Shown here: piece by piece, positions 1 to 14,878 of the stretch
Layout: each line of letters starts with the position of its first letter
Position numbering within the stretch: position 1 is the first letter of the stretch
Virus record (IMG/VR): IMGVR_UViG_2534681701_000012
Origin: a virus
Taxonomy: Duplodnaviria; Heunggongvirae; Uroviricota; Caudoviricetes
DNA length: 17,104 nt
Reading direction: 5' to 3' (one strand)
Notes under the pieces: generated by a model
What the model was told of the DNA's origin: nothing
Seen by the model: the letters and a program-made list of their open reading frames with translations, nothing else
Database searches by the model: none
Position numbers and translations under genes: made by a program

Positions 1-1131
1 TCAAATGACCAGTTTTTTCCATTCCTTACCGCGTGCGTCGTTGTAAATATCGGTCATTTTTTGATTCGAATGGCCCAGCAAAATTTTGGTATCAACCCCC
101 TGCTCTCTGAACAATCGCTCTGATAAAGATCTCTGCTCATGGAAAGAGGGTGGGGTGCCATTAGCACGCCAGTTGTAATCCACAGAATCCCGGGCTTTTT
201 TAAATGCAACGGTTAATGTTGCTGGCTTAACCATCCCGCCGCGCTTAGCTGTCCCTTTCGCGTGATGGTGGTGCAATAGCCACGGACTAAGAACGCAATC
301 GCGGCAGGATGACACTACATCATCCAGGGTGAGATTTAATTTATCGCAACGCAGAGCCAGAGGGATGGCAATCCGGGTTCCTGTTTTTTGCTGTTCGACA
401 TGAAGATAACCATCCCGGATATCCGAAAATTGCATTTTGCAAATATCTGAAAGGCGCTGGCCTGTCATCAGTGCCAGCAGCATACCGCGCTGTAAAAAGT
501 AACCATCCTTTTCCGCTGCGTTATAAATCATCATCCACTCATCAAAAGTCAGTCGCTGTCTTGATATCCGCACCTGCGGTTTTTTTGCCGATTCTGCAGG
601 GTTAAAGCCTGGCGGGACATCGCCCGTTTGCTGAGCTTCCCGGAAAACATCGATCAGTACTTTCCTGAAAATTTGTCCCATTCTGTTATGTCCTCTGGCC
701 TTGTACTCTTCCAGTACTGATACCACATCTTTTACGGTTATGGCATCTAACGGTCTGGTGCCAAAACGTTCATCAAATACCCTGAGAGGGGCCGCTTTCT
801 GTTTCAGCGTGTTGAGTTTGATCTCGCCGTTTTCATATCTTTCCTGTTGAATTTTTCTGTAATTATTCAGAAAAATGGTAACGGTTGATGAACCGCCGGT
901 ATCACTAATAATTTTCTCCTGCAGACTGAGCATTTGTTCCATTTGCTGCCGGGCAAGACGGCTGTTCGCTTCTGCTGCAATAGTTTCTGCCAGTTTCTGG
1001 TCAATACTGCCGAGACCGTGATTTTTGCCTGTTATGGGATGCCTGTAACGCCAGTAAACTTTGTTATTTCTTTTGTCAAAATACGGAGATAATCCCGGAA
1101 CATCGGTTTTATATTTTCGCGGGCGCGCCAT
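1..1131 (-). CDS. int: Phage tyrosine integrase (lambda Int family)
   Basis: 376-aa ORF; stop codon lies at window positions 1-3. Contains LLALMTGQRLSDI (box I Arg region, compare lambda Int VVTGQRVGDL) and C-terminal LLGHSNQKMTDIY with the catalytic Tyr. Sits at the prophage end with xis overlapping its start. Confidence 0.9.
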   Translation of the reverse strand: MARPRKYKTDVPGLSPYFDKRNNKVYWRYRHPITGKNHGLGSIDQKLAETIAAEANSRLARQQMEQMLSLQEKIISDTGGSSTVTIFLNNYRKIQQERYENGEIKLNTLKQKAAPLRVFDERFGTRPLDAITVKDVVSVLEEYKARGHNRMGQIFRKVLIDVFREAQQTGDVPPGFNPAESAKKPQVRISRQRLTFDEWMMIYNAAEKDGYFLQRGMLLALMTGQRLSDICKMQFSDIRDGYLHVEQQKTGTRIAIPLALRCDKLNLTLDDVVSSCRDCVLSPWLLHHHHAKGTAKRGGMVKPATLTVAFKKARDSVDYNWRANGTPPSFHEQRSLSERLFREQGVDTKILLGHSNQKMTDIYNDARGKEWKKLVI

Positions 1132-1421: not shown

Positions 1422-3365
1422 TTAAAAATCAGCCTGACTCGGGATCAGTTTTTGCCAGATAACTGAAACGTATTTTGCCTGGTAACGGGCGTCATCAAGT
1501 GCATTATGGCGCTCACCTTCGAATGGAATAGCCGTTCTGGCATCGAAGTCTATGGCTTTCCCCAGCTCAACGATTGTGCGTACATCGCGATCGTTGTAGT
1601 AACGCCACGGGCAGGGGATCCCCTGCCGTTCGTATGAACGGCGCAAAATCGTGTTGTCGAAGTTGGCTCCATTTCCCCAAACCTGAACAAAAAATTCACC
1701 GGAGTTTTCGTCGATAAATTCCCGCAATTGTAACAGTGCATCATCTAACGGGATTTCATCGGTCATAATGGCAGATTGCGCTTCGCGTGATTGCTTAAGC
1801 CACCATTTAATGGTGTCCCGATCAATGACTCCGCCAGCAGTTTCCAGATCGATAGTCTTACTAAATTCCGGTCCCATATCTCCGGTTTGCGGATCGAAAA
1901 ATATTGCACCTATTGAGATGATCGGGGCATCAGGATTTTTTCCCATGGTTTCAAGGTCGATCATTAGATGGTCACACGTCCTGCTGGTGGATGTGATTTC
2001 TTGATGACCGTTCACCTTAATTGAGTGATCTGCCGTCTCGCCAGTTTCATTATCGCTATCGTGATGCTGATTGCCGTCAGTGTTCTCCTTGTGTGGATGT
2101 TCAGCGCCTTCCATTTCCTCCGGATCATCTTCCTGAACTTCAACCTGATACTCTTCATCGAATGTTTCCTGGTATGTTGCGTCGCCCATCACCGCGCCAC
2201 AATCAGGGCAGTTGCCGCCGCCGGTCTGACCGCAGGCGGTGCAGACTTTTTCCACTTCCTGTTGCGCCACTGGTTCAGGCTGTTTCGTTTCTGGCTCGTT
2301 TTGTAACGCATTTGGGCTGTTTTGTTCCGCTTTCTGGCCGTTCTGTTCCGTTTCTTGCTGGTTCTGATTCACTGAATCGCGGGTTTCAATCCCCTTCACC
2401 CATTTCGGATCATTCGGGTCGCTAATCCCTGCAACAAATTCACCACGTGATACAGCAAGCAACTTATTGGCGTCAGGCTGGCTGATATTGGCTGCCTGCA
2501 TAATTTTGTTTACTTCGTCAGCGGTAACTTTTACCGGCTCTGGTTGTGCGATCGTGTCAGATGCACCAGTATTTTGTTGTGAACCTGAGTACGTGCCGTT
2601 TTTACGTGCGAAGTATTCCTCTTTTGTGATTTCCGTAGCTCCCAGGGCCAGTGCTTTTTCCAGACCAGAAAGTTTGTTTGCGCGACCGTATTTTTCGCCG
2701 TCCTTATCGGTGAAAAGGAAGTAGAACGGTCCCTCACGCTCTACAGATGGTTCGTCTTCCACTTCGCATTCGGTTTTTTCGTTGTCCGGCATTGCCGTTT
2801 CCACTGCATCAGTTTCTGGTACTGGTGACGGGAGAGTACCAGCTGTGCCCTGATTTGTTCCTTCGTCATCTTCAAACACGCCCTTGGTAGTCAGGTATTC
2901 AGTGATGTATTTGTTCAGTGCTACGGGATCTTTGTGAATGTCGATCGGACGCTCACGGACAAGGCCAAAAATAGTCTGACGGTCGTAGCGAACGGCATCG
3001 GGTTGTTTGCGCATTGATGCGGAAATGCGCTTCCAGTCTTCGCGATCTTTGTCGATAACTTCATTTTTTGCCCAGCGATGGATGCTGCCGTCAATGTTTC
3101 CGGTATCAATATCGCCAGGCCAGAGAGCGTAGGCCAGTTCTTCATCCAGCGTTTTCCATGTCTGCTTGTATTCGCGACAAATGGCGGCAGTGACTGGGTT
3201 GATTTTTCCTGCTGAGTTTTCAGTGTTCTGTTGATTGACTCTGGCGCTGGCGAGATCAACAACAGACGTGTATTTTCCAGTCTCTTTGCGCTCTGCGTCC
3301 TGCCGTTTTTTCCAGTTACTTTTTCCAGTTACGTAATTCAGCCTGAATTTCGGGCCATTTGGCAC
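1422..3365 (-). CDS. Putative 3'-5' exonuclease (DnaQ/DEDDh domain at C-terminus) with zinc-ribbon and acidic linker
   Basis: 647-aa ORF. C-terminal ~190 aa carry Exo I/II/III motifs (MIDLETMG, WGNGANFD, HNALDDARY). Central CTACGQTGGGNCPDCG is a CxxC...CxxC motif. Long D/E/Q-rich low-complexity middle region. The 5' end overlaps the upstream ORF by 50 nt. Confidence 0.8.
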   Translation of the reverse strand: MPNGPKFRLNYVTGKSNWKKRQDAERKETGKYTSVVDLASARVNQQNTENSAGKINPVTAAICREYKQTWKTLDEELAYALWPGDIDTGNIDGSIHRWAKNEVIDKDREDWKRISASMRKQPDAVRYDRQTIFGLVRERPIDIHKDPVALNKYITEYLTTKGVFEDDEGTNQGTAGTLPSPVPETDAVETAMPDNEKTECEVEDEPSVEREGPFYFLFTDKDGEKYGRANKLSGLEKALALGATEITKEEYFARKNGTYSGSQQNTGASDTIAQPEPVKVTADEVNKIMQAANISQPDANKLLAVSRGEFVAGISDPNDPKWVKGIETRDSVNQNQQETEQNGQKAEQNSPNALQNEPETKQPEPVAQQEVEKVCTACGQTGGGNCPDCGAVMGDATYQETFDEEYQVEVQEDDPEEMEGAEHPHKENTDGNQHHDSDNETGETADHSIKVNGHQEITSTSRTCDHLMIDLETMGKNPDAPIISIGAIFFDPQTGDMGPEFSKTIDLETAGGVIDRDTIKWWLKQSREAQSAIMTDEIPLDDALLQLREFIDENSGEFFVQVWGNGANFDNTILRRSYERQGIPCPWRYYNDRDVRTIVELGKAIDFDARTAIPFEGERHNALDDARYQAKYVSVIWQKLIPSQADF

Positions 3366-3909
3366 CCGGATTACATTTGTGTTTAACCCATCCGATAGCG
3401 AACAGTTTGCGTTCCGGATACATAGCGTTAATTTCAGGCGTTTTCATCAGTGCTTCAACGATATGCCCGTCAAAGGTAGCAACGTCTTCCTGCAGTAATT
3501 CCTGCGCGTCAATCGCCATATCAACGGTGATGTTTTCACATGTACCGAACTTAACCAGGACCGCGTTCTGTACTTCAAGGGACAGCTTGTCAAAATTGAC
3601 GTTCATCGGATCGGATTCTGGTTCGACCGGAATAAAGGAAGCGGATTCCTCATCCCAGCGGTTTTCCTGCATATATTCAGCATCCCAGGAATCGAGGGCA
3701 GGGCGGGGTATACCGGGTTTATCCTCGCAAACAAGAAATTTATAAGCGCAGTCCTGAGCAGCCGGATAATGTTCCAGGAATTGCCAGTGAAATTTTGCGC
3801 GGGCGCGACGTTCATCACCGGCTTCAATGGCAGTGGCTACAGCGACGGCACCTTCTTCCTTTATTGCCTGTTCGTCCGGAATGGCGGCGCAAATAAAGAC
3901 TTTACTCAT
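3316..3909 (-). CDS. Hypothetical prophage early-left protein
   Basis: 197-aa ORF in the leftward operon between ydfD-like and the exonuclease, co-directional, with normal codon composition. No family recognised from sequence. Confidence 0.6.
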   Translation of the reverse strand: MSKVFICAAIPDEQAIKEEGAVAVATAIEAGDERRARAKFHWQFLEHYPAAQDCAYKFLVCEDKPGIPRPALDSWDAEYMQENRWDEESASFIPVEPESDPMNVNFDKLSLEVQNAVLVKFGTCENITVDMAIDAQELLQEDVATFDGHIVEALMKTPEINAMYPERKLFAIGWVKHKCNPGAKWPEIQAELRNWKK

Positions 3910-6081: not shown

Positions 6082-6543
6082 CTACTGGTTACGTTTCTTT
6101 AGTGCCAGCATGTTCTCGAAGGCTTCCTCGTAGAGCTTGTTTAGTCCACGTAGCTGGTTAAGGAGTTTGGCTTTTTCTGACGCAGGTAGAATCTCGAAGA
6201 GGTTAAGTAACTCTGCCTGTTCTTCATTGACCAGCCTCCATCCTTTGCCTGAAAAGTTATCATCATAAGTATCTGATGATCTTACATAATTCATTAAGTC
6301 TTTAAGGTCTTCTCGAATGTCCTCTGGTTTTACCTTTAACAGAGCCGCAAATTTTAGCGCAGCGTCGGTATTTACCGGTATCTTGCCGTTCAGATACTGG
6401 CTAACGGTGCCTTGAGATTCGAATCCCAACAACTCAGCCGCCAGCTCTTGAGTCAGCTTCAGCTCTTTTTTTCTTGCATTCCATGCGGCTTTTAAATTCT
6501 TGCTCGCTTCTGGAGTTGCAATCACTTCGCGTGTTTTTTTCAT
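6082..6543 (-). CDS. CI/DicA/RacR-like HTH repressor (XRE family)
   Basis: 153-aa ORF with HTH LTQELAAELLGFESQGTVSQYLNG, transcribed divergently from a Cro-like gene across a 100-bp AT-rich intergenic region. Confidence 0.85.
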   Translation of the reverse strand: MKKTREVIATPEASKNLKAAWNARKKELKLTQELAAELLGFESQGTVSQYLNGKIPVNTDAALKFAALLKVKPEDIREDLKDLMNYVRSSDTYDDNFSGKGWRLVNEEQAELLNLFEILPASEKAKLLNQLRGLNKLYEEAFENMLALKKRNQ

Positions 6544-6644: not shown

Positions 6645-6926
6645 TTGGCTATGAACTTAAGAGACTATTTAAAAGAGAAACATATCACCCAGCTACAGTT
6701 TGGGAAGCTAACGGGTTTATCTCAGGTGCATGTAAGTCGAGTGCTGGGGGGCTATGAAAGATTCAGCCCTGAAAAAGCATTACGTGTTGCTGAAGTAACG
6801 AATTTCGAGGTTACACCTCATGAACTCCGGCCTGATATTTACCCGAATCCAACCGACGGCTTACCTGTTGGATTCAAGGCTAACACACCAAATGCATCGG
6901 AGTTGATTCATGAAAATCAGGCATGA
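6645..6926 (+). CDS. ydaS: Cro/YdaS-like HTH protein
   Basis: 93-aa ORF with HTH LQFGKLTGLSQVHVSRVLGG, first gene of the rightward operon, overlapping the next gene start. Resembles Rac YdaS. Confidence 0.75.
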   Translation: MAMNLRDYLKEKHITQLQFGKLTGLSQVHVSRVLGGYERFSPEKALRVAEVTNFEVTPHELRPDIYPNPTDGLPVGFKANTPNASELIHENQA

Positions 6927-7335
6927 GCACATCCGCATGGCGATGAATGCCTGGGCGCATCCGGACGGTGAAAAAGTTCCGGCAGCTGAAATAACCCGGG
7001 CTTATTTTGAGCTTGGTATGACGTTCCCGGAATTATATGACGACAGCCATCCGGAAGCCCTGGCTCGCAATACCCAGAAAATTTTCCGCTGGGTGGAGAA
7101 AGACACTCCTGATGCGGTTAAAAAAATTCAGGCGTTGTTACCAGCGATCGAAAAAGCAATGCCGCCTCTGCTGGTGGCCCGAATGCGCAGCCACAGTTCA
7201 GCTTATTTTCGGGAGCTGGTGGAGACGCGGGAACGACTGGTGAGAGACGCTGATGATTTTGTCGCAGTGGCGATCGCTGGTTTCAACCAGATGAATCGTG
7301 GTGGCCCGGCGGGAAATATTGTGGTTGTGCATTGA
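6910..7335 (+). CDS. ydaT: YdaT-like protein (CII-position regulator/toxin family of Rac-type prophages)
   Basis: 141-aa ORF; GGAG Shine-Dalgarno 7 nt upstream. Sequence MKIRHEHIRMAMNAWAHPDGEKVPAAEITRAYFELGMTFPELYDD matches my recollection of Rac YdaT. Confidence 0.75.
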   Translation: MKIRHEHIRMAMNAWAHPDGEKVPAAEITRAYFELGMTFPELYDDSHPEALARNTQKIFRWVEKDTPDAVKKIQALLPAIEKAMPPLLVARMRSHSSAYFRELVETRERLVRDADDFVAVAIAGFNQMNRGGPAGNIVVVH

Positions 7336-7406: not shown

Positions 7407-8447
7407 ATGGCTAATGCCTGGCTCAGGTTATGGCATGACATGCCAAATGATCCTAAGTGGCGAACAATTTCCAGGGTGTCAGGACAGCCAATTGCAACAG
7501 TGATGGCGGTGTATATCCACCTTCTGGTGAGCGCGTCACGAAATGTCACGACATGTCACGGCGTGTCACTACGTGGTCACATTGATGTCACGACGGAAGA
7601 TTTAGCAAGTGCGCTTGATGTGACGGAAGAAGTAATTGATTCAATTTTACAGGCAATGCAGGGGCGGGTACTTGATGGAGATTTAATCACCGGATGGGAA
7701 AAACGCCAGGTACTGAAAGAGGACAATGGCAACGTTTCACAAACCGCGAAATCCCCGGCAGAGCGCAAGAGAGCGCAGCGCGAGAGGGAAAAATTACGAA
7801 AACAGAATGAGGGGTGTCACGACGAGTCACGCATATGTCACGACATGTCACGACGAGTCACGACAGATAAAGATACAGATAAAGAATTAAACCCCACACA
7901 TAACGCGCACGTGCGCGAGAGTGCTCCGACCAGTGAGTCGAGTGGTACGCCGTTGCAGGCAGCAGAACCTGCATCCCTGGATGGACTGAGCGAACCCATC
8001 GGGAAATTTCCGATGGTCGATGACTGGCATCCGTCGCCGGATTTTCGACGACGGGCTGCGTTGTGGGGGATGGCTTTGCCGGAGCCGGAATTTACACCTG
8101 CTGAACTTGCCGCTTTCTGGGACTACTGGGCAGCGGAGGGGAAAGTTTTCACGCAGGTTCAGTGGGAGCAGAAATTCGCCCGTCACGTAAATCACGTCAG
8201 GGCGCAGGTTAAGCCAGTCAGCAAGGGGGTAAACCATGCAGCAGCACCAGGTGGCACCGCATCACGGGCAGTTCAGGAAATTCGGGCAGCACGTGAGCAG
8301 TGGGAACGTGAAAACGGATTTATCAGCGACGGAAACGGTCTGGAAGCTGTGGGAACTCATGGGGGAGGTTTATTCGAACCGCTGGACCCAGAAGAACGGG
8401 GCCGCACCTTCGAAGCTCTGGATTGCACAGATTGGCGCGATGACTGA
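7407..8447 (+). CDS. Replication initiator / replisome organiser (functional analogue of lambda O)
   Basis: N-terminal MANAWLRLWHDMPNDPKW fits the phage replisome-organiser N-terminal motif. Iteron clusters lie inside the ORF and a P-like gene follows. Start taken at ATG 7407 (GAGGTG Shine-Dalgarno) rather than GTG 7401. The 3' end is uncertain because of the long overlap with the next gene. Confidence 0.75.
   Translation: MANAWLRLWHDMPNDPKWRTISRVSGQPIATVMAVYIHLLVSASRNVTTCHGVSLRGHIDVTTEDLASALDVTEEVIDSILQAMQGRVLDGDLITGWEKRQVLKEDNGNVSQTAKSPAERKRAQREREKLRKQNEGCHDESRICHDMSRRVTTDKDTDKELNPTHNAHVRESAPTSESSGTPLQAAEPASLDGLSEPIGKFPMVDDWHPSPDFRRRAALWGMALPEPEFTPAELAAFWDYWAAEGKVFTQVQWEQKFARHVNHVRAQVKPVSKGVNHAAAPGGTASRAVQEIRAAREQWERENGFISDGNGLEAVGTHGGGLFEPLDPEERGRTFEALDCTDWRDD
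7535..7893. repeat. Putative replication origin: two iteron clusters plus AT-rich tract inside the O-like gene
   Basis: GTCAC(G/T) repeated 6 times at 7535-7591 and 5 times at 7815-7861, spaced 10-11 bp (one helical turn). Second cluster is followed by AGATAAAGATACAGATAAAGAATTAAA. Confidence 0.6.
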
Positions 8448-8901
8448 GCAGCAAATCCGACAGGTCTGCCGCCAGTGCATGGACCGCTGCCGGGCGGGTG
8501 AAACATGGCCTCCGGACCTGGCTGAGTTTGTGGCGCTGATTTCGGAGAGCGGAGCCAATCCATTCGGTCTGACGGTGGATGCTGTGATGGAGGAGTACCG
8601 CCGCTGGCGCAATGAGTCCTGGCGATATGACGGAAGTGATAAGTACCCGTGGCCTCAGCCTGTGCTGTATCACATTTGCCTTGAGATGCGTTCAAAGGGG
8701 ATTGAGCGCCAGATGACCGAAGGGGAATTAAAACGGCTTGCAGAACGGCAGCTGACGAAATGGGCAAAGCATGTTAGTAACGGCCTGAGCGTTCCGCCAG
8801 TCCGGCGACAACTGGCGGCACCCAAACGCCCGTCGGGGCCAACGCCAATTGAGTTGCTGAAACAGGAATATGAACGCCGGAAAGCGGCTGGGTTTGTTTG
8901 A
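8236..8901 (+). CDS. Lambda P-like replicative helicase loader
   Basis: 221-aa ORF; C-terminal half (YPWPQPVLYHICLEM...GELKRLAERQLTKWAKHV) aligns by eye with lambda P (YPWKSNAHYWLVTNL...AELRRKAADELVHM). AAGGGGG Shine-Dalgarno 7 nt upstream of ATG 8236. Overlaps the O-like ORF by 212 nt; alternative starts at 8359 or 8440. Confidence 0.8.
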   Translation: MQQHQVAPHHGQFRKFGQHVSSGNVKTDLSATETVWKLWELMGEVYSNRWTQKNGAAPSKLWIAQIGAMTEQQIRQVCRQCMDRCRAGETWPPDLAEFVALISESGANPFGLTVDAVMEEYRRWRNESWRYDGSDKYPWPQPVLYHICLEMRSKGIERQMTEGELKRLAERQLTKWAKHVSNGLSVPPVRRQLAAPKRPSGPTPIELLKQEYERRKAAGFV

Positions 8902-8933
8902 GTTGAGAAGTAATTTTTACCGGGAGGAAATTT

Positions 8934-9687
8934 ATGGAGACTGTTTTTGACGCACTGAAAGCGATGGGAAAAGCCACGTCGGTAGAGCTGGCTGCGCGAC
9001 TTGATATCAGTCGTGAAGAAGTGCTGAACGAACTATGGGAACTGAAAAAGGCTGGTTTCGTTGATAAAAGCGCGTACACCTGGCGTGTGGCTGATAACAA
9101 CGTTCAGCAGGAACAGCCAGCGCAGGCAGAACTGCCGGAAGAAACCACCACAGCAACAGTAGCGAAAATCTCAGAGTGCGATTTAACCGCAACGATTGAA
9201 CAACGCGGACCACAAACGGCGGATGAACTGGCTACGTTTTTTCGGCATCACATCACGCAAAGTGGCTTCAACGCTGGCAATGGCAATCAGTAAAGGTCGT
9301 CTGATTCGCGTTAATCAGAACGGTAAATTTCGTTACTGCATGCCGGGCGATAATTTACCAGCAGAGCCGAAAGCTGCATCGGTAGCGGAAACTGATGGTA
9401 AAGCCTTTCCTCAGCCAGCCGGTGTTGCGTTACCAGTACTGGAAGCTGCAACACAGGAAGATATTAAAACCGAAACTGTGGCGGACATTGTGCAGTCGTT
9501 GCCATCGTTTACTGAAACGCAAGCGGATAACCTGATTTTACCATCGCTGCATATAGCAAATCGTGAACTGCGTCGGGCGAAAAGTCATGTCCAGAAGTGG
9601 GAACGAGTCTGCACCGCGCTGCGGGAGCTGAACAAGCACCGGGATATTCTTCGGGATATTACCGCGACCGGAGAGCTGCAGCGGTGA
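8934..9687 (+). pseudogene. Tandem winged-helix protein gene split by a 1-nt frameshift in a T6 run (possibly DUF1627-type)
   Basis: ORF 8934-9293 (GGGAGG Shine-Dalgarno) and ORF 9196-9687 overlap in different frames. Reading through T6 at 9237-9242 as T5 joins ...TADELATFF to [23 protein letters not shown], a second copy of the N-terminal wHTH-like segment [30 protein letters not shown]. Fused product would be about 251 aa. Confidence 0.55.
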
Positions 9688-10001
9688 GTGGCTGGAAGAA
9701 GTGGTACGAGGCTGAAATCATGATACTCCGGCAGTGTGCGGGAACGATGACGGTCGAAAGCATTGGGAGGCTGACCGGTCGTACAGGTGATGCTGTCAGA
9801 ACGAAAGCGCGGGAACTGGGTGTCAGCCTGATGTTACGGGGTGATTATCACCAGTCAACAAAATATCCGCAGAGTGATATTGAACTGGCGCGACAGCTGC
9901 ATCAGCGTGGCGTACCCAGGAGAGAAATCGCCAGAAAATTTGGAATGCCGTTGCGCACAGTGAATAACTACGTTTATTTCGACAGGAGAGTTCAGGAGTG
10001 A
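9684..10001 (+). CDS. Small HTH-containing protein
   Basis: Likely starts at GTG 9684 overlapping the upstream stop (GTGA), with GGAG upstream; the track ATG at 9597 lies inside the previous gene. C-terminal [32 protein letters not shown] is HTH-like. Confidence 0.5.
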
Positions 10002-10294
10002 GGGTGAGAGTTTATATTGCCGGTCCAATGACCGGGTATAAAAATTTCAACCGTGAGGCGTTCCACAAGGCGGAAGAGGAACTGAAACGGGAAGGGCATA
10101 CAGTCTTGAACCCGGCAGTACTTCCGGATGGGCTGACACAGCCGCACTACATGGATATTTGCATGGCAATGATTCGTTGTGTGGATGCGATTTACATGCT
10201 GAAAGGCTGGCAGCGGTCAGCAGGTGCTAAGGCAGAACTGGCGCTGGCGGAGAAACTGGGGCATGCAGTTATTTTCCAGGAGGAGGTACAGTGA
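9998..10294 (+). CDS. DUF4406-like protein (nucleoside 2-deoxyribosyltransferase-like fold, by recollection)
   Basis: 98-aa ORF, GTG start overlapping the upstream stop; N-terminal VYIAGPMTG is a Rossmann-like glycine-rich motif. Family name from memory only. Confidence 0.6.
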   Translation: MRVRVYIAGPMTGYKNFNREAFHKAEEELKREGHTVLNPAVLPDGLTQPHYMDICMAMIRCVDAIYMLKGWQRSAGAKAELALAEKLGHAVIFQEEVQ

Positions 10295-10566
10295 ATATCG
10301 ACGCAACAATGACGATTGGTACGGCCCTCAATACGGGGTTGGCGCTTCCTGGTTGGTGCTACATCATGTTCTGCTCATGGCGGTGGCTGTCACTGATGTT
10401 ACTGAAAGAATGGAATAAACGCTGTAAACAGACGCAGCGGCAGAAGGCAATGAATGCGTTTTTTGAGACCTTCGATATTGACAGTATAGAACCAGGAGAG
10501 CCAGCTCGCGTGATTAGCAGAGGTGACGTTGTAATTCTTGTATACCGGAGTGAAGAGAAAGCATAA
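10291..10566 (+). CDS. Small predicted membrane protein
   Basis: 91-aa ORF with GTG start overlapping the upstream stop (GTGA); hydrophobic segment IGTALNTGLALPGWCYIMFCSWRWLSLMLL. Confidence 0.45.
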   Translation: MNIDATMTIGTALNTGLALPGWCYIMFCSWRWLSLMLLKEWNKRCKQTQRQKAMNAFFETFDIDSIEPGEPARVISRGDVVILVYRSEEKA

Positions 10567-10671
10567 TCCAAATCTGAATAATTAAATCCAGCACTGTAAA
10601 TAAAATTTAATCCTTAACCGGAGGGATTTCTGCACCCTCAGAACATCAGGAGGCCGCCTGAAAGGGCGGTA

Positions 10672-11094
10672 ATGAAAATGACTGAATTAACAAAAGAACA
10701 ATTAATCGAAGAAGCCAAATTAAAAATAGCGATTACGAAATGCCACCCCAATTCAGGGATGGCGCGAGTAGAGGGCGAGTTATTCAAAATTGCACTGGCA
10801 TCGCTGGAAGCAGAGCCGATAGCGTGGCGATATCGCTACGTGAAAAAAGGTGTTATGGACTCTCAGGGGGAGTTGTGGGTTGGTGACTGGAAATATGTAC
10901 CGAAAAAAGAGGATTGTAACGACAGGCCGAACTATGAAATTCAGGCCTTATTCACTGCCCCACCAGTCCCGGTTACATCAGAAGAACTGGTTAAAGCTGT
11001 GCACTTTTATGAACAACTAAAACGCGAAAATCCACCAGCATCCGGCAACCAGATTAATGGGTTAACTATGCCGGTTAAACGACCAGCCGACTGA
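10672..11094 (+). CDS. Hypothetical nin-region protein
   Basis: 140-aa ORF with AGGAGG upstream (separated from the ATG by a hairpin) and normal composition. No motif recognised. Confidence 0.65.
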   Translation: MKMTELTKEQLIEEAKLKIAITKCHPNSGMARVEGELFKIALASLEAEPIAWRYRYVKKGVMDSQGELWVGDWKYVPKKEDCNDRPNYEIQALFTAPPVPVTSEELVKAVHFYEQLKRENPPASGNQINGLTMPVKRPAD

Positions 11095-11305
11095 AAAACG
11101 GAAACCTGATTACAGATTCCCAGATAAGGCAATGAGCTACCTGGCGTAGAGTGGGCTGATAAGTATGGGGAATGTTTTACGATGAATATTTAGACTAAAG
11201 AGTTTGTAACGCTATGTAAGTGATTTTTTCTGGTTTAGATATTTATATGTCCGGCCAAATTGAGGTGTGTTTAAATGTAATTGCACATTGATTGTAGGGG
11301 GAATA

Positions 11306-11485: not shown

Positions 11486-11744
11486 ATACAGCGAACGCTA
11501 TTGGTTTAGTTGGATATTTACTGTGCCGGACAAAAACGGTTTGCAGGGAAATCTTAGTTAAGTAGAATGACTGTGGGTGCTTGAGGCTATCTGTCTCAGG
11601 CATGAACACCAAAAGGCAGATAGAGAAAAGCCCCAGTTAACATTACGCGTCCGGCAAGACGCTTAACATTAATCTGAGGCCATATCTATGCTCTACACAC
11701 GTAGGTTAGCCTCTTACGTGCCGAAAGGCAAGGAGAAGCAGGCT

Positions 11745-11900
11745 ATGAAGCAGCAAAAGGCGATGCTAATCGCCCTGATCGTCATCTGTTTAACCGTCAT
11801 AGTGACGGCACTGGTAACGAGGAAAGACCTCTGCGAGGTACGAATCCGAACCGGCCAGACGGAGGTCGCTGTCTTCACAGCTTACGAACCTGAGGAGTAA
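11745..11900 (+). CDS. hok: Hok/Gef-family membrane toxin (HokD/RelF-like)
   Basis: 51-aa product MKQQKAMLIALIVICLTVIVTALVTRKDLCEVRIRTGQTEVAVFTAYEPEE has the Hok signature (TM helix, RK..LCE.R, EV..F.AYE). AGGAG Shine-Dalgarno 9 nt upstream. Confidence 0.85.
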   Translation: MKQQKAMLIALIVICLTVIVTALVTRKDLCEVRIRTGQTEVAVFTAYEPEE

Positions 11901-13685: not shown

Positions 13686-14060
13686 ATGCTCATAGATTTG
13701 GTTTTACCTTACCCGCCGACGGTGAACACTTACTGGCGACGCCGTGGCAGCACATATTTTATCTCGGAGGAGGGAAAGCGTTATCGCCGGGCTGTGGCGC
13801 TTATTGTTCGCCAGCAGCGGCTGAAATTAAGCCTGTCCGGAAGGCTGGCGATAAAGGTGATTGCAGAGCCACCGGATAAGCGTCGTCGCGACCTGGACAA
13901 TATCCTGAAAGCACCGCTGGATGCGCTGACGCATGCGGGAGTGTTAATGGACGATGAGCAGTTTGATGAAATCAATATCGTTCGTGGTCAGCCAGTATCT
14001 GGTGGACGTATGGGGGTGAAGATTTACCCCATAATGCATGAAGAGCAGGTCAAAAAATGA
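13686..14060 (+). CDS. rusA: RusA Holliday-junction resolvase
   Basis: 124-aa ORF; LPYPPTVNTYWRR and RRRDLDNILKAPLDALTHAGVLMDDEQ correspond to RusA motifs (K-12 RusA: [39 protein letters not shown]). Confidence 0.85.
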   Translation: MLIDLVLPYPPTVNTYWRRRGSTYFISEEGKRYRRAVALIVRQQRLKLSLSGRLAIKVIAEPPDKRRRDLDNILKAPLDALTHAGVLMDDEQFDEINIVRGQPVSGGRMGVKIYPIMHEEQVKK

Positions 14061-14878
14061 AACTGGAAGATTTACCGAAATACTACTCCCCAAAATCCCC
14101 TGGCCTGACCGATGCATCGGCCTCAACGTCAAAAGATGCGCTGAGTATCACTGATGTGATGGCCGCGCAGGGCATGACACAGAATCGGGCTGAGATGGGG
14201 TTTTCTGCGTTCCTGGGGAAAATGGGCATCAGTATGAATGACAGGGCGCGGGCAACAGAATTACTGGCAGATTATGCACTCAGTCGGTGCGATCGTATGG
14301 CGGCGTTGAGAAAACTTCCGGCAGAAATAAAACCGGTAGTGATGCGCATTATGGCTTCGTATGCGTTTGAAGATTATGCCCGTAGCGCGGCGAGCAAAAA
14401 ACAGTGCCCCTGCTGTCACGGAAAAAAATTTATTGAAAGCGAGGTTTTTACAAACAAGATCCAGTATCCGGATGGTAAGCCACCAGTGTGGGCAAAGTGC
14501 ACAAAAGGCGTGTATCCGTCTTACTGGGAAGAATGGAAAAAAGTCAGGGAGGTGGTAAAAGTTGCCTGTCCGGAGTGTGGCGGAAAGGGTGAGGTTTCCA
14601 CCGCCTGTAAGGATTGCCGTGGGCGTGGTGTCGCCATTCATCGTGAAGAGTCGGTAAAACGTGGTATGCCTGTTATCAGAGATTGCCAGCGTTGTGGTGG
14701 TCGTGGCTATGAAAGACTACCATCAACGGAGGCATTTAATGCCATACGCAAAGTGACGAGTGCTATCACGCTTGATACGTGGAAAAAATCAGTGAAACGC
14801 TTTTACGATACGTTGGTGGTTCGGTTTGACATTGAAGAGGCATGGGCGGAGCGGCAGTTAAAGAGGGTAACGCGATAG
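14057..14878 (+). CDS. Late-gene antiterminator Q-like protein with CxxCxGxG zinc-finger repeats
   Basis: 273-aa ORF whose ATG overlaps the rusA stop (ATGA). Repeated CPCCHGKK, CPECGGKG, CKDCRGRG, CQRCGGRG motifs. Followed by a promoter/terminator pair at the expected PR-prime/tR-prime position. Confidence 0.7.
   Translation: MKLEDLPKYYSPKSPGLTDASASTSKDALSITDVMAAQGMTQNRAEMGFSAFLGKMGISMNDRARATELLADYALSRCDRMAALRKLPAEIKPVVMRIMASYAFEDYARSAASKKQCPCCHGKKFIESEVFTNKIQYPDGKPPVWAKCTKGVYPSYWEEWKKVREVVKVACPECGGKGEVSTACKDCRGRGVAIHREESVKRGMPVIRDCQRCGGRGYERLPSTEAFNAIRKVTSAITLDTWKKSVKRFYDTLVVRFDIEEAWAERQLKRVTR

What the first reader, a model, noticed from the sequence alone, without database searches (positions are those of the whole stretch)
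9684..10566. Translationally coupled three-gene cassette (HTH protein, DUF4406-like protein, small membrane protein) in the nin region
Three consecutive ORFs each start with GTG embedded in the stop codon of the previous gene (GTGA at 9684-9687, 9998-10001, 10291-10294). This implies obligatory coupling and fixed stoichiometry. The combination of a DNA-binding protein, a nucleotide-binding Rossmann-like protein and a small membrane protein in the P-to-Q accessory hotspot is the kind of compact module often found to be a defence or toxin-like system, but nothing in the sequence identifies its function.
Basis: inference. Interest (0 to 1): 0.5.

Follow-up and report, generated by a model that had tools for sequence, protein, structure and literature searches.

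The report
Three overlapping prophage accessory genes
Three small genes in an E. coli lambda-like prophage do overlap start-to-stop, but this tight packing is normal for that operon and the genes are swapped independently between phages, so they are ordinary accessory genes, not a dedicated three-part system.

Summary
GTGA start/stop overlaps sit at 9684, 9998 and 10291, and comparative data support all three GTG starts. The genes encode a tandem-HTH protein, a DUF4406 protein and a DUF4752 protein. They lie between replication gene P/ydaW and hok-sok/DUF968/RusA/Q of a Rac/Qin-like prophage.

The reading as an obligatory three-part module is not supported.
- **Different spread:** DUF4406 occurs across phyla, the HTH only in Enterobacterales, and DUF4752 only in E. 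coli, Salmonella and Shigella.
- **No trio in diverse species:** none of 80 species-level DUF4406 loci has it.
- **Partial co-occurrence elsewhere:** in IMG/VR samples, 46 of 80 DUF4752 genes and 20 of 77 HTH genes stand without the other two. About 379 of 5426 E. coli genomes carry the trio, against 1301, 1275 and 610 carrying each gene.
- **Generic overlaps:** the same 4-nt overlaps join DUF4406 to non-homologous neighbours, and join RusA to Q in this window.
- **No defence signal:** PADLOC finds nothing, and no plus-strand promoter or terminator brackets the cassette.

DUF4406 folds confidently as a minimal nucleoside-deoxyribosyltransferase/DNPH1-like N-glycosidase with an invariant Tyr6/Asp53/Glu80. 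It is probably a nucleotide-pool enzyme used during lytic growth. This is an ordinary mosaic nin-region arrangement of low interest.

The parts
8934..9687 (+). DUF1627 (ydaW-like) gene. Its TGA (9685-9687) overlaps the GTG of the HTH gene. In this window it is split by a +1 T in a T-run (9236-9241) into ORFs 8934-9293 and 9196-9687.
   Evidence: Pfam DUF1627 2.2e-89. The gene is an intact 250-aa ORF in E. coli CEA106S. T6 versus T5 is shown in the alignment.
9670..9675 (+). Shine-Dalgarno-like GGAGAG, 8 nt before GTG 9684. Most relatives have a weaker AGAGAG here.
   Evidence: Sequence; junction comparison.
9684..10001 (+). Gene 1: a 105-aa protein with two tandem helix-turn-helix motifs. GTG start inside GTGA.
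   Evidence: Weak Pfam HTH hits. PHROG 323 at 4.5e-28. N-terminal conservation in alignment A2. GTGA junction conserved. Profile match to the tandem-HTH structure 2lvs.
9984..9998 (+). Two Shine-Dalgarno-like sites: AGGAGAG 9984-9990, 7 nt before GTG 9998, and AGGAG 9994-9998, 5 nt before the alternative GTG 10004.
   Evidence: Sequence; junction comparison.
9998..10294 (+). Gene 2: a 98-aa DUF4406 protein with a minimal NDT/DNPH1-like N-glycosidase fold and invariant Tyr6, Asp53, Ser74 and Glu80.
   Evidence: Pfam 5.8e-38. PHROG 355. Invariant residues in alignment A1. AlphaFold pLDDT 91.3. Foldseek top hits are NDTs, MilB/BcmB and DNPH1 at TM 0.70-0.77.
10278..10286 (+). Shine-Dalgarno AGGAGGAGG, lying inside the last codons of DUF4406 and 4-7 nt before GTG 10291.
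   Evidence: Sequence. A CAGGAGG at this position is kept whichever gene follows DUF4406.
10291..10566 (+). Gene 3: a 91-aa DUF4752 protein. It has an N-terminal hydrophobic helix (about residues 9-38), a basic stretch, and a C-terminal beta-hairpin.
   Evidence: Pfam 3.3e-42. Alignment A3. Hydropathy. AlphaFold pLDDT 68.

Best explanation
The three ORFs are consecutive accessory genes of the rightward early operon of a Rac/Qin-like lambdoid prophage, and each can be exchanged independently. They sit in the nin-equivalent region between the replication genes (DnaT-like, P, ydaW/DUF1627) and hok-sok, DUF968, RusA and Q.

They are transcribed as part of one long polycistronic message. The 4-nt GTGA start/stop overlaps are the normal compact packing of this operon. 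A terminating ribosome could re-initiate on the next gene, but each gene also has its own Shine-Dalgarno sequence. The overlaps do not mark a protein complex.

- **Gene 1** is a small DNA-binding protein with two HTH motifs. Its target is unknown.
- **Gene 2 (DUF4406)** is a minimal member of the nucleoside 2-deoxyribosyltransferase/DNPH1 superfamily that keeps the Tyr-Asp-Glu catalytic triad. It most likely cleaves or transfers the base of a (deoxy)nucleoside or (deoxy)nucleotide. That would adjust the nucleotide pool while the phage replicates.
- **Gene 3 (DUF4752)** is a small, probably membrane-anchored protein found only in E. coli, Salmonella and Shigella phages.

Shown here: the anatomy, the starts, the fold, and the mosaic distribution. 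Inferred: the timing of expression, the enzyme activity and its substrate, and the membrane location.
For: Context and operon structure:
- Integrase, exonuclease, repressor, YdaS/YdaT, DnaT-like, P, DUF1627, then the three genes, then sok, DUF968, RusA and Q.
- No plus-strand promoter-like or terminator-like site lies in 8800-11300.

Different phyletic spread:
- DUF4406: 585 clusters across Proteobacteria, Planctomycetota and others.
- HTH: 157 clusters, Enterobacterales only.
- DUF4752: 35 clusters.

Co-occurrence:
- No adjacent trio in 80 species-level DUF4406 loci.
- Among the 80 nearest IMG/VR DUF4406 loci, 63 have neither partner, 9 have only the HTH gene and 8 have only DUF4752.
- DUF4752-centred loci: 46 alone, 18 with DUF4406 only, 16 trio. 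HTH-centred loci: 20 alone, 42 with DUF4406 only, 15 trio.
- E. coli genomes: 1301, 1275 and 610 carry each gene, against 379 with the contiguous trio.

Non-homologous replacement and other contexts:
- DUF977 replaces the HTH gene upstream of DUF4406 with the same GTGA junction, and shows no similarity to it.
- At least four different genes follow DUF4406, each overlapping its stop.
- HTH homologs lie in the early-left operon in Salmonella and Pantoea.
- The order is DUF4406...HTH in Enterobacter.
- DUF4752 lies between Ant and Ead/Ea22 in phage POCJ13.
- Neighbours of DUF4406 in 73 species are heterogeneous replication, recombination and nin genes.

DUF4406 fold and triad:
-.
- The NDT-superfamily triad Tyr/Asp(Asn)/Glu is documented, and a phage NDT-family dAMP hydrolase/transferase (DmtZ) is characterised, in PMC12884076.
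Against: - The trio is not rare. It recurs in about 7% of complete E. coli genomes, including O157:H7 at only about 84% DNA identity.
- 74% of the sampled HTH genes are followed by DUF4406.
- The DUF4406-DUF4752 pair also occurs in Salmonella. Some pairwise functional link therefore cannot be excluded.
- These samples are the closest relatives, so the adjacency may simply reflect shared descent.
- No expression data or biochemical data were available.
- The promoter scan is a crude consensus search.
- PADLOC (2023) only covers described systems.
Confidence: 0.75

Rival explanations
1. The three genes form one functional module, such as a prophage-encoded defence, exclusion or toxin-like system. 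An NDT-like enzyme would be the effector, a DNA-binding protein the sensor or regulator, and a membrane protein the partner. They would be made in fixed proportions through translational coupling.
For: - The trio recurs in 379 E. coli genomes and at two sequence-divergent levels (99% and about 84%).
- NDT-like domains joined to DNA-binding domains are known defence effectors in type II retrons. The Ec86 effector depletes NAD+ (PMC7736814; PMC13276650).
- Where the HTH gene is absent, another gene (DUF977) occupies the same slot.
Against: - PADLOC finds no hit for any of the three at E<=1, apart from a trivial HTH match.
- There is no reverse transcriptase or ncRNA nearby.
- None of 80 diverse DUF4406 loci has the trio, and most DUF4406, DUF4752 and distant HTH genes lack the partners.
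- Gene order is permuted in other genera.
- No own promoter or terminator was found, so expression in the lysogen is not expected.
- The overlap length is not conserved.
Confidence: 0.07
2. Only a pair works together, and the third gene is a bystander. The pair would be either HTH (or DUF977) with DUF4406, or DUF4406 with DUF4752.
For: - 57 of 77 sampled HTH genes are directly followed by DUF4406, and 34 of 80 DUF4752 genes are directly preceded by it.
- DUF977-DUF4406-DUF4752 occurs in Salmonella.
- DUF4752-like ORFs lie 0.7-1.2 kb downstream of DUF4406 in Edwardsiella and Rouxiella.
Against: - The samples are close relatives, so adjacency may be inherited.
- In 73 species DUF4406 has no recurrent neighbour family.
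- 63 of the 80 nearest DUF4406 loci have neither partner.
- Distant HTH homologs lie in another operon.
- DUF977 and the HTH protein are not homologous.
Confidence: 0.13
3. The overlapping GTGs are not the real starts. Translation would begin at ATG 9720, GTG 10004 and an internal ATG of gene 3, so there would be no coupling.
For: - PGAP annotates the HTH gene from the ATG equivalent to 9720 in the nearest genome.
- GTG 10004 aligns with the usual Met of the DUF4406 family and has AGGAG 5 nt upstream.
Against: - The residues before ATG 9720 are conserved in distant homologs.
- GTG 10004 is lost in 23 related loci, while GTG 9998 is always kept.
- The DUF4752 N-terminus is conserved from the GTG.
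- Even GTG 10004 lies only 2 nt past the upstream stop.
Confidence: 0.05

Closest known systems
nin-region / early-operon mosaic accessory genes of lambdoid phages (lambda and P22 nin genes; Rac, Qin and O157 prophage equivalents)
   Same: - Position between replication genes and RusA/Q.
- Small ORFs packed with 1-, 4- or 8-nt overlaps.
- Independent exchange at gene boundaries between phages.
- No own promoter or terminator detected.
   Different: None of the three is homologous to a named lambda nin gene. Their individual functions have not been studied: no paper was found on DUF4752, and the three papers that mention DUF4406 did not, by title and abstract, look like functional studies and were not opened.
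Nucleoside 2-deoxyribosyltransferase superfamily: NDT/PDT, DNPH1 (Rcl), MilB/BcmB CMP N-glycosidases, phage DmtZ
   Same: - DUF4406 has the same alpha/beta fold (Foldseek TM 0.70-0.77).
- It has an invariant Tyr6...Asp53...Glu80 in the order and spacing of the superfamily triad (PMC12884076).
- The Y-x-A-G-P motif matches the Y7/A9 positions named in the C. thermalis NDT entries.
   Different: - It is much shorter, at 98 aa versus 120-160 aa, and lacks the C-terminal segment.
- There is no sequence-level match to any PDB chain.
- The Pfam Nuc_deoxyrib_tr score is far below its cutoff, at 13.9 versus 28.8 bits.
- Substrate and activity are untested.
Retron type II-A effectors (NDT-like domain plus DNA-binding domain, e.g. 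Ec86/Eco1, Sen2)
   Same: An NDT-fold protein is combined with a DNA-binding protein in a mobile-element context (PMC7736814; PMC13276650).
   Different: - There is no reverse transcriptase or msr/msd RNA here.
- There are no PADLOC hits.
- The HTH is a separate gene that is usually absent next to DUF4406.
- The genes sit in a lytic early operon, not a stand-alone island.

Membership tests
Pfam DUF4406 (PF14359) | Score above the gathering cutoff over the full-length model. | tested here: met
   129.6 bits against a cutoff of 22, covering profile positions 2-91 of 91.
Pfam DUF4752 (PF15944) | Score above the gathering cutoff over the full-length model. | tested here: met
   142.9 bits against a cutoff of 27, covering profile positions 1-84 of 84.
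Helix-turn-helix DNA-binding proteins (Pfam HTH_23 and relatives) | Score above the gathering cutoff for an HTH family. | tested here: inconclusive
   The best hit, HTH_23, scores 23.0 bits against a cutoff of 24.6, and eight other HTH families score below cutoff. PHROG 323 'transcriptional regulator' hits at 4.5e-28. The profile matches the tandem-HTH structure 2lvs at E 2e-4.
Nucleoside 2-deoxyribosyltransferase / DNPH1 superfamily | The alpha/beta NDT fold. | tested here: met
   The model has pLDDT 91.3. Thirty-three of the 34 best-ranked PDB hits (rank 35 is an unrelated dehydrogenase) are NDT, MilB/BcmB or DNPH1 chains, at probability 1.00 and TM 0.64-0.77.
Nucleoside 2-deoxyribosyltransferase / DNPH1 superfamily | A catalytic triad: an N-terminal Tyr, a central Asp (or Asn), and a Glu nucleophile. 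| tested here: met
   Tyr6, Asp53 and Glu80 are invariant in 22 diverse sequences. The order and spacing agree with Y7/D62/E88 of C. thermalis NDT (entry titles) and with the triad described in PMC12884076. The equivalence is judged by spacing and conservation. No residue-by-residue superposition was inspected.
Nucleoside 2-deoxyribosyltransferase / DNPH1 superfamily | N-glycosidase or transferase activity on nucleosides or nucleotides. | not testable with these tools
   This needs a biochemical assay.
Known anti-phage defence systems (PADLOC-DB 2.0) | At least one component matches a defence-system model. | tested here: not met
   DUF4406 and DUF4752 give no hit at E<=1. The HTH protein gives only a 13.6-bit match to an 18-residue HTH stretch of mad1.
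Retron type II (NDT effector) | An adjacent reverse transcriptase and msr/msd ncRNA. | tested here: not met
   No RT appears among the annotated genes of the collinear locus. Rfam finds only sok in the window.
Dedicated multi-gene system (conserved gene cluster) | Components co-occur and keep their order across divergent genomes. | tested here: not met
   None of 80 species-level loci has the trio. Partners are absent in most IMG/VR loci. The genes occur in other operons or other orders in Salmonella, Pantoea, Enterobacter and phage POCJ13.
Integral membrane protein (gene 3) | A hydrophobic segment of about 19 or more residues above the usual Kyte-Doolittle threshold of about 1.6. | tested here: inconclusive
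   The value is 1.12 in the window copy, which carries an L20P change, and 1.2-1.9 in 17 relatives. The segment is followed by a basic stretch. AlphaFold gives a long helix at low confidence.

The most novel reading that the evidence does not exclude
DUF4406 could be a phage N-glycosidase that destroys a specific nucleotide. One candidate is the modified dNMPs (hm-dCMP, hm-dUMP) that competing virulent phages need, as DNPH1 and MilB do with hmdUMP and hmCMP. Another is NAD+ or a signalling nucleotide, as the retron Ec86 effector does. The flanking DNA-binding gene (HTH or DUF977) and the small membrane protein could then modulate it. That would make this slot of the lambdoid nin region an unrecognised inter-phage competition or anti-defence locus.
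Probability: 0.07. Interest if true: 0.6.

Novelty: already known. Interest (0 to 1): 0.15.

Why it matters
For the cassette as proposed, it matters little. It is a common mosaic arrangement of annotated DUF genes in E. coli prophages, and start/stop overlaps in such operons should not be taken as evidence of a functional module.

The one point worth keeping is DUF4406. It is a very widespread and uncharacterised 98-residue phage protein. It keeps the NDT/DNPH1 catalytic triad and sits next to replication and recombination genes in many phyla. Finding its substrate would add a nucleotide-pool enzyme to the biology of temperate phages.

Tried and rejected
- **PADLOC:** scan of the three proteins and their neighbours found nothing relevant.
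- **NCBIfam:** no family matched.
- **PDB by sequence, DUF4406:** nothing meaningful with either the single sequence or the profile.
- **PDB by profile, DUF4752:** only designed repeat proteins, which I rejected as compositional matches.
- **Literature:** the three papers that mention DUF4406 look, by title and abstract, like annotation mentions and were not opened; none mentions DUF4752; 'lygF' hits are unrelated lysozyme papers.
- **Rfam:** only sok in the window.
- **Intergenic fold, 10560-10690:** not different from shuffled sequence, z = -0.9.
- **Promoter/terminator scan:** no plus-strand sites around the cassette.
- **AlphaFold of DUF4752:** too uncertain (pLDDT 68) to justify a fold search.
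- **Longer HTH ORF from GTG 9597:** rejected. It would overlap DUF1627 by 91 nt, and homologs do not extend that far.
- **HTH and DUF977 as homologous alternatives:** rejected, BLASTP E = 1.3.
Full report
**1. What is in the sequence**

Reading 9000-11200 and the ORF list confirm the finding's coordinates. GTGA lies at 9684-9687, 9998-10001 and 10291-10294. In each case the TGA ends the upstream ORF and the GTG is in frame with the next one.

The three products are:
- A 105-aa protein with several sub-threshold HTH matches. The best is HTH_23 at 23.0 bits against a cutoff of 24.6.
- A 98-aa DUF4406 protein (E 5.8e-38).
- A 91-aa DUF4752 protein (E 3.3e-42).

PHROGs places them in families 323 (transcriptional regulator), 355 (annotated nucleoside 2-deoxyribosyltransferase) and 667 (unknown).

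**2. Context**

The nearest record is E. coli CEA106S, at 99.9% identity over the cassette. Pfam scans of the other large ORFs and Rfam give this map:
- integrase (1-1131, minus strand)
- exonuclease (1422-3909, minus strand)
- repressor (6082-6543, minus strand)
- YdaS and YdaT
- DnaT-like protein (about 7407-8447)
- P (about 8440-8901)
- DUF1627/ydaW (8934-9687)
- the three genes
- a 140-aa ORF (10672-11094)
- sok/hok (11575-11750)
- DUF968
- RusA (13686-14060)
- Q (14057-14878)

A simple consensus scan found no plus-strand promoter-like or terminator-like site between 8800 and 11300. That fits one long early-right transcript.

**3. Are the overlapping GTGs the real starts?**

*HTH gene.* PGAP starts it at the ATG equivalent to window 9720 in CEA106S (93 aa), but uses the overlapping start in O157:H7 (105 aa). 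In an alignment of 24 homologs down to 60% identity, the residues upstream of that ATG (consensus M-x-K-W-x-R-A-E-I-M-I) are conserved. The GTGA junction with DUF1627 is kept in nearly all related loci, and a GTGA junction also appears with other upstream genes. GTG 9684 is the best start.

*DUF4406.* The family's usual Met aligns with a second GTG at 10004. That codon is GTC or GTA in 23 related loci. The first GTG, inside GTGA, is present in every E. coli-type locus. GTG 9998 is the conserved start.

*DUF4752.* The N-terminus is conserved from the GTG.

Each start has a Shine-Dalgarno-like sequence at a workable distance:
- GGAGAG at 9670-9675
- AGGAGAG at 9984-9990
- AGGAGGAGG at 10278-10286

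Re-initiation coupling is plausible, but independent initiation is equally possible.

**4. Do the overlaps mean anything special?**

No. Several observations point the same way.
- In this window RusA and Q, which have unrelated functions, are joined by the same kind of 4-nt overlap (ATGA at 14057-14060).
- In an Enterobacter prophage carrying homologs of two of these genes, 8 of about 14 consecutive junctions are 4-nt overlaps.
- Around DUF4406 in 73 different species, at least 21 upstream and 23 downstream junctions are 4-nt overlaps with whatever gene is there.
- In E. coli-type loci, the DUF4406 start keeps the GTGA overlap when the upstream gene is the non-homologous DUF977.
- The DUF4406 stop overlaps the start of at least four different downstream genes: ATGA in 39 loci, GTGA with DUF4752, GTGA with another gene, and an 11-nt overlap with an Ead-like gene.
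- Within the trio itself the geometry is not fixed. In O157:H7 a 1-nt indel makes the DUF4406/DUF4752 overlap 11 nt.

**5. Is the trio conserved?**

The three families have very different ranges.
- DUF4406 has 585 clusters and occurs in Enterobacterales, Vibrio, Shewanella, Aeromonas, Burkholderiales, Planctomycetota and others.
- The HTH protein has 157 clusters, all from Enterobacterales.
- DUF4752 has 35 clusters, from E. coli, Shigella and Salmonella.

I built HMMs from alignments A1-A3 and scanned all fetched loci.

| Sample | Result |
|---|---|
| 80 species-level DUF4406 loci | None has the window's arrangement. Only four have an HTH-like or DUF4752-like ORF within 4 kb, in another order or not adjacent. 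|
| 80 closest IMG/VR DUF4406 loci | 63 have neither partner, 9 have only the HTH gene, 8 have only DUF4752. |
| 80 DUF4752-centred loci | 46 alone, 18 with DUF4406 only, 16 trio. |
| 77 HTH-centred loci | 20 alone, 42 with DUF4406 only, 15 trio. |

In 5426 complete E. coli genomes, 1301 carry the HTH gene, 1275 carry DUF4406 and 610 carry DUF4752. Only 379 carry a contiguous stretch covering at least 80% of the cassette. The cassette count comes from megablast, which could miss diverged copies.

More distant homologs sit in other contexts.
- In Salmonella and Pantoea the HTH homolog lies in the early-left operon, near exonuclease, excisionase and integrase, with no DUF4406 nearby.
- In Enterobacter the order is O - DnaB - DUF4406 - two ORFs - HTH.
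- In Stx-type phage POCJ13, DUF4752 lies between Ant and Ead/Ea22.
- In Salmonella the arrangement P - DUF977 - DUF4406 - DUF4752 occurs.

The immediate neighbours of DUF4406 across 73 species are a mixed set of phage replication, recombination and nin genes. They include RusA, DNA methylases, DnaB, P, DUF968, metallophosphoesterases and exonucleases, with no recurrent partner.

The trio is thus one recurrent combination among several in a mosaic region. It is not a conserved unit. The caveat is that the IMG/VR samples are the top 80 hits. They over-represent close relatives, so the pairwise adjacencies (HTH followed by DUF4406 in 74%; DUF4406 before DUF4752 in 43%) may reflect shared descent and not selection.

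**6. What the proteins probably do**

*DUF4406.* With alignment A1, AlphaFold gives a confident model (pLDDT 91.3, pTM 0.85). Thirty-three of its 34 best-ranked PDB matches (rank 35 is an unrelated dehydrogenase) are nucleoside 2-deoxyribosyltransferases, the CMP N-glycosidases MilB and BcmB, and human or rat DNPH1 (TM 0.64-0.77).

Tyr6, Asp53, Ser74 and Glu80 are invariant across 22 diverse sequences. The NDT-superfamily triad is an N-terminal Tyr, a central Asp or Asn, and a Glu nucleophile (PMC12884076). The mutants named in the C. thermalis NDT entries (Y7F/A9S, D62N, E88Q) have the same order and spacing. I infer this equivalence from spacing and conservation. I did not inspect a superposition.

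The protein is much shorter than characterised members, and it has no sequence-level PDB match. A phage-encoded NDT-family enzyme that remodels the dNMP pool has been characterised. That enzyme, DmtZ, is a dAMP hydrolase and phosphodeoxyribosyl transferase (PMC12884076). It shows the kind of role such an enzyme can play.

My best guess is a (deoxy)nucleoside or (deoxy)nucleotide N-glycosidase or transferase used during phage DNA replication. This fits its usual neighbours.

*HTH protein.* It has two HTH motifs and resembles the 105-residue tandem-HTH structure 2lvs. Nothing identifies its target.

*DUF4752.* It has a 30-residue hydrophobic segment followed by a basic stretch and a short beta-hairpin. 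Hydropathy is borderline and the model is weak. Membrane anchoring is likely but not shown.

**7. Defence or toxin?**

PADLOC gives nothing for DUF4406 or DUF4752, and only a trivial HTH match for gene 1. NCBIfam has no model. I found no study of these DUF families as such: none mentions DUF4752, and I did not open the three papers that mention DUF4406 because their titles and abstracts did not point to functional work.

There is one real analogy. Type II retron effectors combine an NDT-like domain with a DNA-binding domain, and the Ec86 effector depletes NAD+. However, there is no reverse transcriptase or retron RNA here. The HTH is a separate gene that is usually absent next to DUF4406. The genes also sit in a lytic early operon with no detected promoter of their own, so expression in the lysogen is not expected. 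I rate the three-gene-system reading at about 7% and a two-gene link at about 13%.

**8. Verdict**

The functional inference of an obligatory, stoichiometric three-part module is not supported.

This is an ordinary mosaic stretch of a lambdoid prophage early operon, made of already catalogued DUF families. Interest is low. The only lead worth biochemical follow-up is the very widespread, minimal NDT/DNPH1-like DUF4406 enzyme.

Noticed in passing
window 9236-9241 (ORFs 8934-9293 and 9196-9687): The DUF1627/ydaW gene is split by one extra T in a T-run: T6 here against T5 in E. coli CEA106S, where the gene is an intact 250-aa ORF. This is either a real inactivating frameshift or a homopolymer sequencing error. 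If it is real, ribosomes would rarely reach the GTGA at 9684, so the HTH gene would depend on its own Shine-Dalgarno sequence in this strain.
   Followed up: yes
window 1422-3909, minus strand (ORFs 3316-3909 and 1422-3365): The exonuclease gene is also split into two overlapping ORFs. They match residues 1-197 and 195-823 of the single 823-aa protein of CEA106S, and the break is at a WKK(R) A-rich stretch. A second frameshift in the same prophage suggests decay of the prophage, or systematic homopolymer errors.
   Followed up: partly
window 14057-14060: RusA (13686-14060) and the Q antiterminator (14057-14878) are joined by an ATGA 4-nt overlap. This is an in-window example of the same junction between functionally unrelated genes.
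   Followed up: yes
window 11575-11750: A full-length sok antitoxin RNA (Rfam RF01794, 117 bits) lies with a hok-type ORF downstream. It is the hokD/sok type I toxin-antitoxin locus typical of Qin/Rac-like prophages.
   Followed up: no
window 10553-10620: An AT-rich intergenic stretch just after DUF4752 is 91-96% identical to unannotated intergenic DNA in several otherwise different E. coli phages (vB_EcoS-666R9 and others). It may be a mosaic joint or an unannotated regulatory element. Its RNA fold is not better than shuffled sequence.
   Followed up: partly
L002 10124-10405 (equivalent to window 9720-10001): The RefSeq/PGAP annotation of the nearest genome starts the HTH gene at an internal ATG, giving 93 aa. 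Conservation of the 12 upstream codons in distant homologs indicates this call is truncated.
   Followed up: yes
L004, L016, L021 (genome contigs): Contigs labelled as Collinsella, Actinomycetes and Chryseobacterium assemblies carry enterobacterial-type prophage genes. Their DUF4406 copies are 97%, 61% and 61% identical to the window's, and L016 also has an HTH gene at E 2e-56. This is probably bin or assembly contamination.
   Followed up: no
window 6645-7335: A YdaS (HTH) and YdaT (toxin YdaT family) pair sits next to the repressor with a 17-nt overlap. This is the Rac-type cII-position module sometimes described as a toxin-antitoxin pair.
   Followed up: no
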